Below, piece after piece: positions 16,432 to 55,878 of a stretch of 64,000 bases of DNA (positions within the stretch are counted from its first letter, which is position 1; each line of letters starts with the position of its first letter). Position numbers and translations under genes: made by a program. Source of the stretch: Nibricoccus sp. GTDB taxonomy: Bacteria; Verrucomicrobiota; Verrucomicrobiia; Opitutales; Opitutaceae. The DNA lies in the NCBI GenBank assembly GCA_047602425.1, contig JASGHG010000001.1, positions 4,352,001 to 4,416,000 of the forward strand, read 5' to 3'. The notes under the pieces are model-generated. The model saw only the letters and a list, made by a program, of their open reading frames with translations. It was not told where the DNA came from and made no database searches.

Positions 16432-16502
16432 GTAGGGGCGCAGTCTTGCTGCGCCCTTTCTGTGGCAAAGTCAAACTGGGCGCAGCAAGACTGCGCCCCT
16501 AC
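16432..16502. repeat. REP doublet (GTAG type)
   Basis: GTAGGGGCGCAGTCTTGCTGCGCCC and its perfect inverse, 21 nt apart. Confidence 0.85.
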
Positions 16503-39553: not shown

Positions 39554-39782
39554 GCCCAAGGTCAGAAGCCGGAGGCCAGATGTCGGTTTCGGAGGTCGGA
39601 AGTCGGAAGTCAGAGTTCGGAGTGTGCAGAATGGAAAACAGAGGCCGGAGACCGGAGAACAAACGTGATCATATTTGTTAAAGAAGCGAGCGTCCGAAAA
39701 GCAAAAGACCGCGAAGCATGAAGGCTCGCGGTCTTATTGTTTTCAAATGCTGGTATCCGGCATCTGGCTTCTAGCCTCTGGT
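39554..39782. repeat. palindromic heptamer-repeat element (GYCRGAR type) with internal terminator-like hairpin (39703-39735)
   Basis: About 12 direct heptamers at 39554-39657; 5 inverted heptamers at 39748-39782. Confidence 0.8.
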
Positions 39783-41005: not shown

Positions 41006-41133
41006 GCCACAGAGAGCACAGAGCTCGGACACAGAGTTCACGGAGCGGCAATGGGGTGCCTTTGTAATCCTCCTTACTTCTTCAGTGGTTTGACTCCGTG
41101 TTCTCTGTGTCGGAGCTCTGTGTCCTCTGTGGC
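41006..41133. repeat. 40-bp inverted repeat built from CACAGAG units
   Basis: 41006-41045 vs reverse complement of 41094-41133, 35/40 identical. Confidence 0.85.
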
Positions 41134-47707: not shown

Positions 47708-49399
47708 TCAACGTGCAGCGAGGAATGCCCGCCAGCCGCCGAACGAGGTGACGTCGCGAGCGTTTGCCACGGCGGCGGCTTCGCAGAGGAAACTCTGCAC
47801 GGTCGAGCCGTCGTCGAGCGTGACGGTGCCGATGCCAAGCGGACTCGGAATGTTGGAAACGAAATGGCCGTAACCCGCGACGGGGACGTTCCAGACTTCG
47901 ACTTCAATGGGCGCGCCGCCTTCGACGACCCGGATCAGTCCGGGTTTGGGCGGCGTGGTGCCGGGCAGGGCGAAGAGTTTGTAGGTGGGAGCCGTTTTGG
48001 TCGCGCGGTCGAGGGTCGCGCCGAGCTGGGTGAGTTGCCAGTTGAGCGGGAGTCCGCTGAGGTGCGCGCCGCAGACGGCAAGTTTAATCGTGCGGCCGGC
48101 AGATGGCAGGGAGCGTTGCGGCGCGGTTTCGCCGAGAAATTTTGCGCCGAGGCGGAGCACGCGATCATCGCAAAATGCGGGAGCGACGAGCGTAACGCCC
48201 CAAGGCATTTTGTTTGGCAAAAAGCCCACGGGAACGGCGACGGCACAGAGATCGAATAGGTTCAGGTAATTAGTATAGGTGCCGAGGTTCGAATTGAGAC
48301 GGATGGGATCGGACTCGACTTCGGCGACGGTGTAGACCGTGCCCGTGGTGGGCGTGAGCAATACGTCGATGTCGGCCCAAACGGCCTCGGCTTGGCGGCG
48401 GAGCGCAGCGAGTTTGTAGGCGGCCTCGAAGGCGGACGTGGCAGTGAGGGCGCGCGCGCTTTCGATGATCTGGCGCGTGACGGGATGCAGCGCGGCGGGT
48501 TGGCTCTCGATGAAAGGGCGGATGGCCGCATAACGCTCGGCGACCCACGGTCCCTCGTAGAGCAAGCGGGCCGCGGCGAGAAACGGCGTGAAGTCGATTT
48601 CGACGATTTTGGCGCCGAGCGAACGCCAGCGCGCGATGGCGGTGGCAAAAAGTTCGGCGGCGGCGGCGTTGCCGAAAAATTCGAGTTGGTCGGCGCGCGG
48701 CACGCCGATGCGAGGCGGCCAGACTTCATCGATCACCGGCGGAGTGGCGGGGCGGCTGTATGGATCTTCCGGATCGTAGGCGGCAGCGACGGAGAGAATT
48801 TCGGCGGCGTCGGAAATTGTGCGTGTGAAGATGGAAACGCAGTCGAGTGTGCGGCAGGCTGGAACCACGCCGCGGGTGCTGAGGAGGCCGCGCGTGGGTT
48901 TGAGGCCAACGAGGTTGTTGAAGGCGGCGGGAACGCGACCGGAACCGGCCGTGTCGGTGCCGAGGGCAAAATCGCATAAACCAGCCGCCACCGCCACGGC
49001 GGAGCCGGAGCTGGAGCCGCCGGGGATGTAAGCTGAGTTGAACGGATTTACGGGCACGCCATACGGTGAGCGCACGCCGACGAGGCCGGTGGCAAATTGG
49101 TCGAGATTGGTTTTGCCGAGGGGAATCGCTCCGGCATTGACGAGCCGTTGCACGACAGGAGCGGAAGTGGAGGGCGTGTACGCGAAATCGGGGCAGGCGG
49201 CGGTGGTGGGCACGCCAGCGAAGTCGATATTGTCCTTGATCGCAAACGTCAGACCGCGCAGTGGAGCGGGACCGAAAAGTTTGGCCGCGGCATCGGCGAG
49301 TCCGAGCACGTGCTCGCGGCACAGGCGCGAAATCCAGACGGGGTCCTTTCCGCGGGCGTCGAGGCGGGCGAGAGTTTCGGCGATGGGTGAAGGGGCCAT
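47708..49399 (-). CDS. atzF: allophanate hydrolase
   Basis: KDNID, GKTNLDQFATGLVG, GGSSSGS, GTDTAGSGRVP; C-domain VCGAHLSGLPLN. Confidence 0.95.
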   Translation of the reverse strand: MAPSPIAETLARLDARGKDPVWISRLCREHVLGLADAAAKLFGPAPLRGLTFAIKDNIDFAGVPTTAACPDFAYTPSTSAPVVQRLVNAGAIPLGKTNLDQFATGLVGVRSPYGVPVNPFNSAYIPGGSSSGSAVAVAAGLCDFALGTDTAGSGRVPAAFNNLVGLKPTRGLLSTRGVVPACRTLDCVSIFTRTISDAAEILSVAAAYDPEDPYSRPATPPVIDEVWPPRIGVPRADQLEFFGNAAAAELFATAIARWRSLGAKIVEIDFTPFLAAARLLYEGPWVAERYAAIRPFIESQPAALHPVTRQIIESARALTATSAFEAAYKLAALRRQAEAVWADIDVLLTPTTGTVYTVAEVESDPIRLNSNLGTYTNYLNLFDLCAVAVPVGFLPNKMPWGVTLVAPAFCDDRVLRLGAKFLGETAPQRSLPSAGRTIKLAVCGAHLSGLPLNWQLTQLGATLDRATKTAPTYKLFALPGTTPPKPGLIRVVEGGAPIEVEVWNVPVAGYGHFVSNIPSPLGIGTVTLDDGSTVQSFLCEAAAVANARDVTSFGGWRAFLAAR

Positions 49400-49414
49400 G
49401 CGGGAGGAAGATTA

Positions 49415-49495
49415 GTAATTTGTAGTTGGTAGTTTGTAGTTGGTTTTTGACGAAGGGCAGCTTTGACGAACTACTAATTTCAAACTGCCAATTAC
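49415..49495. repeat. heptamer palindromic element, empty intergenic copy (81 nt)
   Basis: GTAATTT GTAGTTG GTAGTTT GTAGTTG - 25 nt - GAACTAC TAATTTC AAACTGC CAATTAC. Confidence 0.9.
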
Positions 49496-52400
49496 ACTGC
49501 CGTTGCGGCGGCGATTGGCTTGATGACGACGAGTGGATCGCCGGCTTGCACGGGTTTGCCTTCGGCGCAGAGGACCTGTGTGACCTCGCCTGCGCCGGTG
49601 GCGAAGACGGAAATTTCCATTTTCATGGATTCGAGGATGACGAGAGCTTGATCGCGCGTGATGCGGTCGCCGGGCTGGACGTTGATCTTCCAAACGTTGC
49701 CGGGAACCTGTGCGACGATGGCGGTATGGCCTGGCGGGAGCGCGGCATGTTCGGCGGGGCCGGTGGAGGCTTCGCTCTCGGCGGAAAAGTTGAGCTGGCC
49801 GGACGCTTCCCAGCGTTTGCGCTCGGCTTCGAACGATTGCTGCTGGTTCGTCTTGAAGGCGGTGATGGAGGCGGCGTTATCGCGAAGGAATTTCCGATAG
49901 TCGCGCAGGCGAAATGTCTCGTGGTCAATCTTGAGCTTGTAACGGCCGAGCGGGAAATCCTGGCGGAATTTCAACAACTCCTGGGCACTGACCTCGTGGA
50001 ACTTAATCTGGTCAAAGAAGCGCAGCAACCACGGCTTACCGCCAGTGAAGTCAGAGGTTTGCCGCCAGCGGTTCCACATCTGCACGGTGCGGCCGATGAA
50101 CTGATAGCCGCCGGGACCTTCCATGCCATAAACGCACAGGTATGCGCCGCCAATGCCGACGGCGTTCTCGGGCGTCCACGTGCGAGCGGGATTGTATTTC
50201 GTGGTAACGAGGCGGTGACGCGGATCGACAGGCGTGGCGACGGGTGCGCCCAGATAAACGTCGCCAAGGCCGAGAACGAGATAGTTTGCGTCGAAGGCGA
50301 TGCGCTTCACGTCGTCGATGGAGTCGAGGCCGTTGATGCGGCGGATAAATTCGATATTGCTCGGGCACCACGGCGCGTCCTTGCGGACGGTCTGCATGTA
50401 TTTTCGGATGGCGAGGAGTGTGGACTCGTCTTCCCACGAGAGCGGCAAGTGGACGATGCGCGTGGGAACTTCCATATCGTCGAGAGCAGGAAGGTGAACC
50501 TCGGCGTCGATCAATGTCTCCATCAGACGTTCGAGCGGAAGCACGCGGCTGTCGAAGTGAACCTGAAGCGAACGGATGCCGGGAGTGAGATCGAGGATGC
50601 CGGGCGTGTGGCTGTCGACAAGCCAGTCCATCAAGGCGTGAACGCGGAAGCGAAGTTCGAGGTCGAGGACGGCGGGGCCGTATTCGATCAGCAAATACTT
50701 ATCGCCGGCGCGCCGGTAGACGACGGCGGGCAAATCGTCGCGAGGCGGAATGGTGTGGAGGATGGAGGAGGCAGTGGTTGGTAGTTGGTAGTTGGTGGTT
50801 GGTGCGGACGCAGGCGTGGCTTTGGAAGTTTTACCAATTCCCAAATCCCAACGACCAATTGCCCCGGCTCGTTGCCGGCCGGGAATCAAGGTCTCGATCT
50901 GCGCTTCGTGGACCGCTTCGAGTTCGCGGGCCTTGGCGGCGGTGACGGGCCGGAACCGGACTTTGTCGCCAGGCTTAAGCTGGCCGACTTTCCAGAGATC
51001 GGCGGTGATGATCGTCGCGGGGCATACGAAACCGCCGCAGCTCGGGCCGTCGGGACCGAGGATGATCGGCATGTCGCCGGTGAAATCGATCGCGCCGATT
51101 GCGTAGGCGTTATCGTGGATGTTGGACGGATGCAGGCCGGCTTCGCCACCGTCGGTGCGCGCCCAGCGCGGTTTTGGGCCAATCAGGCGGACGCCGGTGC
51201 GGGCGGAGTTGAAGTGAACCTCGTAGGTCGCGGAGAAAAGATCGGCGATGTCTTCGTCTTTGAAAAAATCGGGCGCACCATGCGGACCGTAGAGGACGGC
51301 GATGTCCCATTCGCGGGTATATGTTGGAACGAGGGCGGCCGGGAGTTTGCGGAGCGCGGAGGAGGTAGTTGGTAGTTGGGAGTTGGAAATTGGTGCGGAC
51401 GCAGGCGTAGGCGAAGGGTTTTCACCAATTACTAAAAACGAATTACCAACTACGGTTTGAGCGAAGTGAAGCACGTCGCCAGCGCGCAACGCACGTCCAG
51501 CGTGGCCGCCGAAGAGGCCGAGCGTGAAGGTGGCCTTGCTGCCGAGGTAATCGGGGACATCGAAACCATGCTGAATCGCCAAATAGGCGCGCATGCCGGC
51601 CTCGGTGACTGCACCGACGCGGAGGGTTTGGCCGCGTTTCACGCGGAAGGCGCGCCAGAAAGTCACGGGCTTGTCGTCGAGTGTCGCGGACGTGGCCGCG
51701 CCGGTCAGGGCGACGATGGCAGAAGTGTTGAAGCGGAGCGTGGGACCGCTGAGGGTAATTTCGAGCCCGGCGGCGGAAGCGGGATTGTCGACAAGACGAT
51801 TGGCTAGCCGGAACGCGAGGGCATCCATCGGTCCGGAGGGAGGAACGCCGACATCCCAATGCCCGAGGCGGCCGGGATAGTCCTGCACGGTGGTTTGGGT
51901 TCCGCCGTCGAGAACCTCAATGGTTGGTGCGGAGTAGGGAAGTTTTTCGAGATACCGCGTGGTGACTTTACCGGCGCGGAACCCTTCGGAGGCGAGAATC
52001 TGGCGCAAGTAGAGCAGGTTGGTTTCGAGGCCGGCGACGCGCGTTTCGGCGAGCGCCTGAGCGAGGCGGTTGAGCGCTTCGTCGCGTGTCGAACCGCGCG
52101 AAATCAGTTTCGCGATCATCGGATCGTAGTACGGGCTGACTTCGGAGCCACGCTCGACCCAGGTTTCAGTACGCAAGCTGTGCGGAACGACAAACTCGGT
52201 GAGCACGCCGGTGGCGGGTTGGAAATTTTTGCCAGGATCCTCAGAGTAGAGACGGACTTGGATCGAGGCGCCAAAAGAGCGGCGCTGAAAATTCGTGAGG
52301 TCAAGTTCGCCAGCGGCCTGCTTGACCATCCACTCGACAAGATCGATGCCGGTGACTTCCTCGGTCACGCCGTGCTCGACCTGGAGGCGGGTGTTAACTT

Positions 52401-53262
52401 CGAGAAAATAGAATTTGTTTGTCGCGTCGTCGAAGACGAATTCGACGGTGCCGGCGGACTCGTAGCCGGCGGCGTGGCCGAGTTTCTCGGCGCAAGCAAG
52501 TAGTTCGGCACGGACGTTTTCGGGCAGGCCGGGTGCGGGCGTTTCCTCGATGATCTTTTGGTTGCGACGCTGGATGGAGCATTCGCGCTCGCCGAGGGCG
52601 ACGACGTGGCCGCGTCCATCGCCAAAAATCTGCACTTCGATGTGACGGGCTCGCTCGACGTATTTTTCGAGGAAGAGACCGCTCTCTTTGAAATTGGCGC
52701 GACTGAGGCGATCGACGCGGGCGAACGCGGGTTCGAGCTCAGCGGCGTTCCAACAGAGTTGCATGCCGATGCCACCGCCGCCGGCCGTGCTCTTGAGCAT
52801 GACCGGATAACCGATGCGCTCGGCTTCGCGCAGCGCGGTGGCGACATCGGGCAAAAGTCCAGTGCCGGGAAGAAGCGGAGCGTTTTCTTTTTGCGCGATT
52901 TCGCGGGCGGTGTGCTTCAGGCCGAAGCGACGCATCTGATCGGGTTTCGGGCCGATGAACACGATGCCAGCGGCAGCGCAGGCTTCGGCGAAGCCTGGAT
53001 TTTCCGAGAGAAAACCATAACCAGGATGTATCGCCTGGGCGCCCGTCTGCTTGGCCACCTCAAGGATTTTTTCGATGACGAGATAGCTTTGGGCGGCTGG
53101 CGCAGGACCGATCAGAACAGATTCATCGGCCTCTGCAACGTGGAGCGAGCCGACATCGGCTTCGGAGTACACGGCAACGGACTTGATGCCCATTTTGCGC
53201 AGGGTGCGCTCGATGCGGCAGGCGATGGCACCACGGTTGGCGATGAGGACTTTGGTGAACAC
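49492..53262 (-). CDS. uca: urea/guanidine carboxylase
   Basis: ANRGAIA, HPGYGFLSEN, EVNTRLQVEH, HPSNIHDNAY, KYNPARTWTPEN, biotin motif ESMKME; two low-complexity inserts. Confidence 0.96.
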   Translation of the reverse strand: MFTKVLIANRGAIACRIERTLRKMGIKSVAVYSEADVGSLHVAEADESVLIGPAPAAQSYLVIEKILEVAKQTGAQAIHPGYGFLSENPGFAEACAAAGIVFIGPKPDQMRRFGLKHTAREIAQKENAPLLPGTGLLPDVATALREAERIGYPVMLKSTAGGGGIGMQLCWNAAELEPAFARVDRLSRANFKESGLFLEKYVERARHIEVQIFGDGRGHVVALGERECSIQRRNQKIIEETPAPGLPENVRAELLACAEKLGHAAGYESAGTVEFVFDDATNKFYFLEVNTRLQVEHGVTEEVTGIDLVEWMVKQAAGELDLTNFQRRSFGASIQVRLYSEDPGKNFQPATGVLTEFVVPHSLRTETWVERGSEVSPYYDPMIAKLISRGSTRDEALNRLAQALAETRVAGLETNLLYLRQILASEGFRAGKVTTRYLEKLPYSAPTIEVLDGGTQTTVQDYPGRLGHWDVGVPPSGPMDALAFRLANRLVDNPASAAGLEITLSGPTLRFNTSAIVALTGAATSATLDDKPVTFWRAFRVKRGQTLRVGAVTEAGMRAYLAIQHGFDVPDYLGSKATFTLGLFGGHAGRALRAGDVLHFAQTVVGNSFLVIGENPSPTPASAPISNSQLPTTSSALRKLPAALVPTYTREWDIAVLYGPHGAPDFFKDEDIADLFSATYEVHFNSARTGVRLIGPKPRWARTDGGEAGLHPSNIHDNAYAIGAIDFTGDMPIILGPDGPSCGGFVCPATIITADLWKVGQLKPGDKVRFRPVTAAKARELEAVHEAQIETLIPGRQRAGAIGRWDLGIGKTSKATPASAPTTNYQLPTTASSILHTIPPRDDLPAVVYRRAGDKYLLIEYGPAVLDLELRFRVHALMDWLVDSHTPGILDLTPGIRSLQVHFDSRVLPLERLMETLIDAEVHLPALDDMEVPTRIVHLPLSWEDESTLLAIRKYMQTVRKDAPWCPSNIEFIRRINGLDSIDDVKRIAFDANYLVLGLGDVYLGAPVATPVDPRHRLVTTKYNPARTWTPENAVGIGGAYLCVYGMEGPGGYQFIGRTVQMWNRWRQTSDFTGGKPWLLRFFDQIKFHEVSAQELLKFRQDFPLGRYKLKIDHETFRLRDYRKFLRDNAASITAFKTNQQQSFEAERKRWEASGQLNFSAESEASTGPAEHAALPPGHTAIVAQVPGNVWKINVQPGDRITRDQALVILESMKMEISVFATGAGEVTQVLCAEGKPVQAGDPLVVIKPIAAATAV
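50774..50862. repeat. heptamer palindromic element, in frame within uca (89 nt)
   Basis: GTGGTTG GTAGTTG GTAGTTG GTGGTTG - 33 nt - CAATTCC CAAATCC CAACGAC CAATTGC. Confidence 0.9.
51365..51453. repeat. heptamer palindromic element, in frame within uca (89 nt)
   Basis: GTAGTTG GTAGTTG GGAGTTG GAAATTG - 33 nt - CAATTAC TAAAAAC GAATTAC CAACTAC. Confidence 0.9.
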
Positions 53263-53268
53263 GGGAAA

Positions 53269-53798
53269 GTAGTTGGTAGTTTGTAGTTGGTAATTGGTAC
53301 GGGGATGCTCAATCTTTTGTTGCTCTCGTGCATTGGTGCAGGCTTCCTATAAATCCACTATGGCGACTTTTGTATTGGATGAACTGAGGGTTTACCGCAT
53401 GGCGGAGGAATTGGCGGACGCGACGTGGGATTTGATTGGTGATTGGGCTCCGTTTGCTAAGGAAACCGTTGGCAAGCAGCTGGTGCGCGCGGCCGATAGC
53501 GTCGGTGCAAACATCGCCGAGGGTTACGGACGAGCGTCGCCGGCCGACAATCAACGTTTCGTGAGAATGGCACGCGGATCTCTTTACGAAGTTAGGCATT
53601 TTCTGCGCCGAGCGGATAAGCGAGGGCTGGTGGATAAGACGTCGAAGCAGGCATTGCAGAAAGTTCTCAGTGAATTGCTCCCGGGATTGAATGCATACCT
53701 TCGTTCCCTGCGAAATGGCGGGGATGGTGACAAATAGGAATTTTACGGAGGTGCACACAGGTGTTTCGACCAACTACCAAATACAAACTACTAACTCC
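53269..53798 (+). mobile_element. candidate gene-carrying heptamer palindromic element
   Basis: 4 heptamers (53269-53296) and 4 inverted heptamers (53771-53798) enclosing one ORF; mobility is inferred, not shown. Confidence 0.6.
53360..53737 (+). CDS. four-helix-bundle protein (23S rRNA IVP family)
   Basis: LRVY, QLVRAADSVGANIAEGYGR, ARGSLYEV. Confidence 0.93.
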   Translation: MATFVLDELRVYRMAEELADATWDLIGDWAPFAKETVGKQLVRAADSVGANIAEGYGRASPADNQRFVRMARGSLYEVRHFLRRADKRGLVDKTSKQALQKVLSELLPGLNAYLRSLRNGGDGDK

Positions 53799-54491
53799 TC
53801 AATCCGACGCATGGGAGGGCTTGGCATTCCAAACCAAAACTTCGATTGGCGTCGGGTTGTAGGCGTTGCAGGGGTTGTTGAGTTGGGGGCAATTTGAGAT
53901 GAGGCAGATGACGTCGCGTTCGGCGCGGAGCTCGACGTAACGGCCCGGCCCTGAAACGCCGTCTTCGAACGTGAGGCGACCGTCGGGCGTGACGGGGACG
54001 TTCATGAAGAAGTTGATGTTGCAGGTGATGTCGCGTTTGCCCCAGTCATGTTTTTCGAGATGGAAACTGTGGCATGAGCAGGAAATTTCCTGGGCGCCGC
54101 GAATAAAACTGTCGCGGCAGGCGTGCATGTGCTCCTTTTCAAGGGCGTAGCGCATGGTGTTGCTTTCGCGCGAGCAGGCGCCGCCGAGCGTGTCGTGGCG
54201 ACCGCAGGTGTCGGCAACGATAGTGAGGAGCGCGTCGCCTTCGGTGGAAACGAGGCGCGTTCCGGTTGTGAGGTAGAGAGCACCTTGGTGACGAATCGTA
54301 TCGGAGGCGCTGTAGCGGTTGGCTGGTTCGTGTGCGTCGTAGAAAAGTGTGTCGGCCGCCTGATTTCCCTCGAGATCGACGATGCGGAGGGTTTGGCCCT
54401 TTTTAACGACGTAGGAAAAATAGTCGCCGGCGAGCACGACCTTACGGAATGCCGCGGTGGATGGGTCGAGTTTGCTTTCGGTGAGGGTCAT
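53799..54491 (-). CDS. urea amidolyase-associated protein 2 (DUF1989, CgdB-like)
   Basis: [43 protein letters not shown]. Confidence 0.92.
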
Positions 54492-55377: not shown

Positions 55378-55878
55378 CTACCGAAGGGGTGGAATGGCGG
55401 CGGCGGTGAGATTGAGCCGGCCATTTTTCACGCCTTTGCACGTGACGAGCTCGTCGGTCAGTTTGCGCAGTTCGTTTGCCGGCCCCTGAACGAGGAGAAC
55501 TTCGAGGTAGTTGTGATGTTCCAAGTGTACGTGCATACTGGATACAATCAGCAAGTAGTAGCGGTGTTGGATTTCCGCGAGGCGCGCCTGGAGATCTTTT
55601 TTTCGATAGTCGTAAACGAGGCTGACCGTGCCGGCGACAGAACCGGTGCCGATTTCGCTGGCAAACTCGACCAAACCGTCGCGAGCGAGCGCAGCCACAG
55701 CTTGCGAGCGACTCTGAAAGCCACGACTTGCCACCATGGCGTCGAGCTCGTCGAGCAGGCTTTCAGGAAGCGAAATGCTGAAGCGGGCGACTTTGTCGGA
55801 GCGGGCAGCTGCGACCGGCGAATCCGTTGAAGGATTCGCCGCTGTGGGCAGAGTTGAGTTTCTAGAAGAGGCGGGCAT
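55378..55878 (-). CDS. NikR-like ribbon-helix-helix regulator
   Basis: [11 protein letters not shown]...[13 protein letters not shown]...QH...HVH..LEV. Confidence 0.88.

What the first reader, a model, noticed from the sequence alone, without database searches (positions are those of the whole stretch)
50774..51453. Two 89-nt palindromes lie in frame inside urea carboxylase, with their stop codons removed
SEEN: both copies are 89 nt with 33-nt loops and share TTGGTGCGGACGCAGGCGT, so they have a common origin. They translate as AIGRWDLGIGKTSKATPASAPTTNYQLPTT and VVGNSFLVIGENPSPTPASAPISNSQLPTT. With a 7-nt period, the third heptamer of the first mRNA arm would read G-TAG-TTG (a stop) in this frame. 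That unit is altered in both copies, differently (G-GAT-TTG and G-TTT-TTA). INFERENCE: the inserts are translated and tolerated in loops or linkers (one follows GDVLHF, one follows the GDKVRF...helix segment), analogous to Rickettsia palindromic elements. The ORF is 1256 aa, whereas I recall about 1200 aa for typical Uca.
Basis: partly seen in the sequence, partly recalled or inferred. Interest (0 to 1): 0.85.

Follow-up and report, generated by a model that had tools for sequence, protein, structure and literature searches.

The report
Heptamer hairpin cassettes colonising enzyme linkers
Two 89-base hairpins built from a 7-base repeat sit in frame in two variable linkers of a urea/guanidine carboxylase gene and are likely read as extra peptide; across related bacteria they appear mostly when a small gene framed by the same repeats lies next door, which suggests a poorly understood selfish element that likely seeds miniature copies nearby.

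Summary
Both 89-nt imperfect palindromes lie in frame in uca (aa 604-633, 801-830). Both sites are variable linkers; the net gain over the nearest relative is +23 and +19 aa, not 30, and there is no target duplication. The same GTAGTTG arms frame a four-helix-bundle gene (PF05635, IVP) just upstream and an intergenic hairpin just downstream. Among Opitutaceae-like orthologues I found 24 such inserts in 15 loci, all in one frame. The heptamer that would give a stop carries TAA/TAG in 0 of 24, its pairing partner in 11 of 24, so selection for translation is supported. Inserts occur in 11 of 14 loci with an adjacent IVP cassette and 2 of 56 without, scattered over the tree. One foreign insert is 87% identical to the window's while synonymous sites are 60% identical. 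Best reading: gene-less miniatures of the IVP cassette, copied repeatedly into tolerant linkers. In-frame palindromes are published (Rickettsia RPE; REPs of Opitutus terrae). This scan already noted heptamer/IVP cassettes, and REP inserts in two carboxylase linkers, on other DNA. The copying mechanism is untested.

The parts
49492..53262 (-). Host gene: urea carboxylase family (uca), 1256 aa, uninterrupted
   Evidence: TIGR02712 over cut-off; Pfam BC, CT_A_B 471-772, CT_C_D 849-1068, biotin carrier; 93% aa identity but 53% four-fold-site identity to its nearest orthologue L002
51365..51453 (.). Insert B (site S1, aa 604-633): four-heptamer arm, 33-nt loop, inverted arm; read on the + strand the loop begins with the cassette-leader motif and ends with the cassette-trailer motif
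   Evidence: lies inside Pfam CT_A_B where the PxpC model match ends (449-602); pLDDT 39-47, no secondary structure
50774..50862 (.). Insert A (site S2, aa 801-830): same layout, 79% identical to B
   Evidence: lies between Pfam CT_A_B and CT_C_D; pLDDT under 50
53269..53798 (+). IVP cassette: GTAGTTG-type left arm 53269-53296, four-helix-bundle gene, inverted right arm 53771-53798; left arm begins 6 nt upstream of the uca start codon
   Evidence: inverted repeat I3
53360..53737 (+). Four-helix-bundle / 23S rRNA-IVP gene (125 aa from the ATG; open frame from 53294), antisense to the operon
   Evidence: PF05635 E 2.9e-24; TIGR02436 E 2.7e-23; PDB 2gsc E 7e-8
49415..49495 (.). Hairpin C, 81 nt, same arms, between uca and the allophanate hydrolase gene; its first heptamer on the mRNA strand supplies the uca TAA stop
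   Evidence: keeps stops in four of six frames

Best explanation
The two inserts are gene-less miniatures of the heptamer-armed four-helix-bundle (IVP) cassette family, likely translated as tolerated linker peptide and likely copied into these linkers from a cassette lodged next to the gene. SHOWN: same arms as the adjacent cassette; loop motifs that in relatives lie just inside the cassette arms, in the same order and orientation; both sites are variable linkers; selection keeps the frame open; inserts co-occur with an adjacent cassette. INFERRED: the cassette, or a deleted form, is copied short-range by a templated replacement (gene-conversion-like: a few native codons lost, no target duplication), copies survive only where the protein tolerates them and the frame stays open, and they have no function for the enzyme. 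UNTESTED: that the IVP protein binds the arms or drives the copying.
For: Arms: 8 of 13 GTAGTTG-type arm clusters of the genome lie in these 4.4 kb. Anatomy: the 16-nt motif after the left arm of A is identical to the leader of the IVP cassette of L018 (partly L030, L088); the 9-nt motif before the right arm of B is the cassette trailer of L007, L008, L016; metagenome locus L204 holds arm + both motifs + arm with no long open frame through it and no uca or IVP match nearby. Linkers: S1 usually 23-31 aa against 52, S2 usually 56-66 against 82. Frame: 24 of 24 inserts open in the coding frame; the other five frames are closed in 14-21 of 24. Co-occurrence: 11 of 14 loci with adjacent IVP against 2 of 56 without; at least 8 changes forced on a linker-free tree; independent pairs 6-7 same way, 0 opposite, sign test p 0.016-0.031. 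All 5 genomes tested, with or without inserts, hold IVP genes elsewhere, so adjacency, not mere presence, is what tracks. Recency or templating: B is 77 of 89 identical to the S1 insert of L018, evenly over codon positions, while four-fold sites of the two genes are 60% identical and the sisters of both lack it. In L017 the S2 insert uses the same two deviant words as its own cassette arms.
Against: The window's own cassette lacks both loop motifs, so it is not the direct template in its present form. The leader motif also follows arms at loci with no IVP or uca match nearby, so it marks the family, not this cassette. The match of insert words to the own cassette is modest (mean relative rank 0.27, 19 inserts, not independent; 3 rank in the lower half). 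Within-genome S1/S2 identity (0.69) is only a little above between-genome (0.62-0.63). 3 loci have the cassette without inserts and 2 the reverse. The tree is FastTree only and change counts cannot tell gain from loss. No direct evidence of translation or of IVP activity.
Confidence: 0.6

Rival explanations
1. One or two ancient insertions were inherited vertically, kept similar by selection or by conversion with cassette arms, and lost in most lineages together with the cassette.
For: All 24 inserts share one reading phase and 19 of 24 lengths are 2 mod 3, as a common 89-nt ancestor would give; the IVP tree does not reject co-descent with uca (AU p 0.15); change counts are undirected.
Against: 87% insert identity against 60% at four-fold sites; 12 loci without the hairpin carry single arrays of other heptamer words at S2 and Thiobacillus-type orthologues carry unrelated palindromes at both sites, so the sites are refilled repeatedly.
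Confidence: 0.15
2. The heptamer hairpins are moved genome-wide by another enzyme (a Y1 tyrosine transposase, the reverse transcriptase, or repair and slippage); IVP is only cargo, and the local cluster reflects short-range hopping of any arm-bearing element.
For: The genome has 4 PF01797 matches, 1 reverse transcriptase and 116 period-7 arms of many words (6 in a shuffle); the same linkers take GTAG/CGTC-type palindromes in other species.
Against: The arms are not self-complementary as REPs are; 15 of 16 adjacent IVP matches are free of stops and 67-86% identical to the window's, which suggests a maintained protein; 4 of 5 IVP genes of this genome have periodic arms (by eye).
Confidence: 0.2
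3. The hairpins are excised from, or cut in, the mRNA (IVS-like), so the peptide is not made or the mRNA is processed.
For: The Coxiella 23S IVS has heptamer repeats, a 28-bp stem and an S23p gene and is cut out by RNase III (PMC4990558; abstract and passages read).
Against: Strict frame and stop avoidance would be needless; 89 is not a multiple of 3; the mRNA-strand stems are weak or interrupted; no strand bias in wobble pairs, 34 against 38; rRNA IVS cleavage leaves fragments (same paper), which would destroy an mRNA (inference).
Confidence: 0.05

Closest known systems
Rickettsia palindromic elements (RPE) and intragenic REPs, including those of Opitutus terrae (PMC2229807 passages; PMC3733652 section 15, passages and a supplement search)
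   Same: Palindromic DNA in frame in conserved genes, 20-30 aa, sometimes twice per gene; O. terrae, in the same family as these relatives, has the most intragenic GTAG REPs (70 rows in supplement file 3; no 'urea' or 'carboxylase' match there).
   Different: Arms are tandem heptamers with no hairpin of their own; the partner gene is a four-helix-bundle protein, not a RAYT/TIRYT; insertion replaces native codons; the same sites are refilled across lineages, whereas that paper reports mostly different sites.
S23p/IVP-bearing intervening sequences of 23S rRNA (PMC4990558, abstract and passages)
   Same: Inverted ends with heptamer repeats around a PF05635 gene; mobility by the encoded protein was proposed there as one hypothesis.
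   Different: Here the cassette lies between protein genes, antisense to the operon, and its gene-less forms lie inside a coding sequence and are under selection to be translated.
Dispersed heptamer repeats of Beggiatoaceae, Xanthomonas and Nostoc (PMC4679880 abstract, section 15, passages; PMC4692102 passages)
   Same: 7-nt tandem units, one orientation closed by stops, some inverted pairs, a minority inside ORFs.
   Different: In what I read those papers do not link the repeats to IVP genes ('four helix' and 'intervening sequence' 0 hits in PMC4679880); in Beggiatoaceae coding copies are single-orientation and peripheral, here both arms lie mid-protein.

Membership tests
RPE-type coding palindrome | Palindromic insert in frame, absent from orthologues | tested here: met
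RPE-type coding palindrome | Located in a variable, surface linker | tested here: met
   Variable length across orthologues and domain borders; model pLDDT under 50, which is weak evidence because few alignment rows cover the inserts
RPE-type coding palindrome | Expressed in an active protein | not testable with these tools
   Only indirect: stop avoidance, purifying selection on uca
RPE-type coding palindrome | Sequence homology to Rickettsia RPE families | not tested
   No RPE model was searched against the inserts alone; the whole-protein NCBIfam scan showed the best 25 of 37 families, none an RPE
GTAG REP / REPIN | Each unit is a GTAG-tagged short stem-loop | tested here: not met
   Single arms fold at 0 kcal/mol
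GTAG REP / REPIN | Flanks a RAYT/TIRYT transposase gene | tested here: inconclusive
   The arms flank a PF05635 gene; 4 Y1 transposase matches lie elsewhere, none at a GTAGTTG arm cluster; their flanks were not read
MITE | Terminal inverted repeats shared with a gene-bearing element | tested here: met
MITE | Target-site duplication | tested here: not met
   Flanks of A, B, C and the cassette share no direct repeat; native codons are lost
MITE | Partner encodes a transposase | tested here: not met
   Partner matches only four-helix-bundle/IVP and hypothetical families
23S rRNA IVS | Heptamer-containing inverted ends around an S23p/IVP gene | tested here: met
   Cassette 53269-53798
23S rRNA IVS | Located in 23S rRNA | tested here: not met
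   Lies between protein genes; Rfam scan of 49300-54000 gave one chance-level hit, E 0.35
23S rRNA IVS | Cut out by RNase III | not testable with these tools
   Folding only

The most novel reading that the evidence does not exclude
The four-helix-bundle IVP protein is the mobility factor of a transposase-free element family: it recognises its own heptamer arms and seeds deleted copies in cis, by templated replacement without target duplication, repeatedly writing the same 30-residue peptide into neighbouring enzyme linkers. The uca locus would be a ready test system for the long-unknown function of IVP/S23p proteins.
Probability: 0.25. Interest if true: 0.85.

Novelty: new variant of a known kind. 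Interest (0 to 1): 0.52.

Why it matters
What adds value is the tie to a candidate source: inserts at two fixed linkers track an adjacent IVP cassette across independent lineages. That turns two old unknowns, the role of IVP/S23p proteins and the origin of dispersed bacterial heptamer repeats, into one testable prediction (cis seeding of word-matched miniatures). It also shows that such elements reshape linkers of many housekeeping proteins in Opitutaceae.

Tried and rejected
RNA evidence: no RNA holder was listed for 49400-53900; no evidence either way, and no reads were laid. Strand-specific RNA structure: the three window hairpins fold better on the IVP strand, but over 24 inserts wobble pairs split 34 to 38, so I do not claim it. 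Horizontal movement of the IVP gene: tree unresolved, AU p 0.153. Concerted evolution of S1 and S2 within genomes: weak. GTAG REP identity: rejected. Target duplication: none. Rfam: nothing. Phage carriage: 0 matches in viral contigs with the corrected pattern; the first pattern was mis-spaced, would not match the window's own copies, and its blanks mean nothing. The maximum-likelihood uca tree did not finish; FastTree was used. The structure model is mediocre (mean pLDDT 64.5, TM 0.56 to 3va7). Literature: 9 searches; none listed a paper on IVP cassettes or their miniatures inside protein genes; 'TIGR02436' gave 0 papers. The library lacks most subscription journals and bioRxiv supplements are closed, so this is not proof of absence.

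Full report
1. Observation. The ORF 49492-53262 (-) is 1256 aa and a urea carboxylase family member (TIGR02712), flanked by the UAAP1/UAAP2 genes and allophanate hydrolase. Earlier scan notes and my recollection say such operons act on guanidine; I did not test this. Inserts A (50774-50862) and B (51365-51453) are 89 nt, start on codon boundaries and translate as reported. Each has two 28-nt arms of four heptamers and a 33-nt loop; 19 and 21 of 28 arm positions pair. The shared motif is far beyond chance.

2. Surroundings. The same arms frame two more things: a four-helix-bundle gene (PF05635, TIGR02436) on the opposite strand just upstream of the uca start, and an 81-nt hairpin just downstream whose first heptamer supplies the uca stop codon. 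8 of the 13 GTAGTTG-type arm clusters of the genome lie in these 4.4 kb. The genome holds 5 PF05635 genes, 4 of them with visibly periodic flanks of other words (by eye), and 116 period-7 arms against 6 in a codon shuffle. I picked 20 long ORFs with internal arms from that list; 20 of 20 matched Pfam families, among them IspG, GcvP, RF3, UvrA, SMC, DnaE, MetH, Mfd, HrpA and HemF; in 2 (Dus, ScpB) the arm precedes the first domain. For 4 of them I aligned 4-5 relatives: some lack the insert and some carry a different one at the same spot. The uca case is one of many in this genome.

3. Orthologues. One search gave 69 loci; one search found matches in 86 of 301 family genomes, of which 30 loci came automatically and I fetched 40 more, leaving the remaining, mostly weaker or partial, matches unfetched. 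The Opitutaceae-like set was 99 loci, 79 after removing duplicates. Both sites are variable linkers: S1 is 52 aa here against 29 in the nearest orthologue L002, S2 82 against 63. Native codons are replaced and no target duplication is seen. B lies where the PxpC model match ends and A between Pfam CT_A_B and CT_C_D; an AlphaFold model gives both no secondary structure and pLDDT under 50 beside better-predicted blocks, weak evidence on its own. Thiobacillus-type orthologues carry unrelated palindromes at both sites, L007 has a different GTAG-ended palindrome at S1, and 12 loci carry single arrays of other heptamer words at S2.

4. Translation. 15 loci carry the two-armed GTAGTTG hairpin; I first labelled them by eye, and a both-arms score of at least 14 of 21 then picked the same 15. 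24 inserts were analysed; two single-arm cases (L005 S2, L123 S1) were left out, and arm register is doubtful in about three. All 24 start in the same phase. TAA/TAG per heptamer of the first mRNA arm: 13, 11, 0, 5 of 24; of the partner arm: 11, 14, 11, 11. The coding frame is open in 24 of 24, other frames in 3-10 of 24. The searches read through stops; 1 full-span locus of the 79 (L139) had a shortened ORF, with ordinary linkers. The inserts are not independent; with about 10 origins the chance is near 0.6^10 = 0.006. So selection for an open frame is supported. Whether stops were removed after insertion or absent from the start is open, since only 38 of 96 heptamers in cassette arms carry TAA/TAG. 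uca is under purifying selection (93% aa, 53% four-fold identity to L002). Excision from mRNA is unlikely (see rivals), but no RNA data could be examined.

5. Origin. Read on the IVP strand, B is left arm, leader motif, 8 nt, trailer motif, right arm. The leader motif follows the left arm of the IVP cassette in L018 (16 nt identical to A), the trailer precedes the right arm in L007, L008 and L016, and L204 holds both motifs joined between two arms outside uca. The window's own cassette has neither motif, and the leader also follows arms at other loci: of 22 matches in 18 of 301 genomes, 7 were uca inserts, 1 an IVP leader, about 6 arm-linked elsewhere and the rest chance. An IVP gene sits at the same junction in 16 of 79 loci. 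On a tree of 74 proteins without the linkers, 70 scored for both traits: hairpin in 11 of 14 with adjacent IVP, 2 of 56 without; 10 changes, at least 8 forced by starred branches; independent pairs 6-7 to 0, p 0.016-0.031 (FastTree; flanks of only about 1.5 kb for most loci). 5 of 5 genomes tested hold IVP genes elsewhere. B matches the L018 S1 insert at 77 of 89 nt while four-fold sites match at 60% and both sister lineages lack it, which neutral vertical descent does not explain.

6. Mechanism. Most likely (0.6): miniatures of the IVP cassette family are copied short-range by templated replacement, survive in tolerant linkers in a stop-free phase, and are translated as passengers. Shown: anatomy, linker location, frame selection, co-occurrence. 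Inferred: direction, cis copying, neutrality. Untested: any role of the IVP protein; its resemblance to the Avd protein of diversity-generating retroelements is recalled and named in earlier scan notes, and one search returned only two uncharacterised structures.

7. Known kinds. It works like RPE and intragenic REP inserts (PMC2229807 passages; PMC3733652 section 15 and passages, supplement search), but fails the REP and MITE tests on arm structure, target duplication and transposase. The cassette resembles the S23p-bearing rRNA IVS (PMC4990558 abstract and passages) but is not in rRNA. Heptamer repeats in ORFs are described (PMC4679880; PMC4692102 passages). This scan has already reported heptamer-armed IVP cassettes, in-frame heptamer cassettes, and REP-type inserts in two linkers of this carboxylase on other DNA; the notes pointed me to PMC4990558, and my IVP reading was written before I saw them. 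Nine literature searches listed no paper on IVP miniatures in coding sequence.

8. Verdict. Real, and a new variant of a known kind. Interest 0.52: the translated palindrome is known; the phylogenetically replicated link to an adjacent IVP cassette is the useful addition.

Noticed in passing
G000 genome-wide (L162-L181): Period-7 arms of several words lie in frame inside many housekeeping genes (IspG, GcvP, RF3, CheA, two UvrA, SMC, SNF2, DnaE, MetH, Mfd, HrpA, HrpB, HemF, Wzt); relatives lack them or carry other words at the same spots.
   Followed up: partly
L033, L035, L039, L040, L043, L051, L053, L054, L059, L062 (uca linkers): Thiobacillus-type orthologues carry at least three unrelated palindrome families, translated, in the same two linkers.
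   Followed up: partly
G262:C17, G201:C149, G041:C57, near uca aa 325: Matches split near aa 325 with an open frame, suggesting a third insertion-tolerant site in the biotin carboxylase domain.
   Followed up: no
window 41006-41133: 40-nt inverted arms, 88% complementary, with a short internal period; another repeat family.
   Followed up: no
window 16432-16502: Perfect 25-nt inverted repeat beginning GTAG with self-complementary arms, REP-dimer-like.
   Followed up: no
window 39558-39622: Heptamer arm of another word (GGAAGTC/GGAGGCC type).
   Followed up: no
window 55378-55878: NikR-like regulator (RHH + NikR_C) upstream of the UAAP/carboxylase genes, with glutamine-synthetase-like and creatininase-family genes beyond it.
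   Followed up: no
L161, L142, L155: Arm plus the same leader motif in frame in other genes of other genomes (by eye a sulfite reductase flavoprotein, a 2-oxoacid dehydrogenase E2 linker and a helicase), two of them with different heptamer words.
   Followed up: partly
L088 upstream of uca: The adjacent IVP gene has one in-frame stop; the other 15 matches have none.
   Followed up: no
G129:C16:60814: L090 has inserts but no adjacent IVP; an IVP gene lies about 18 kb upstream on the same contig.
   Followed up: no
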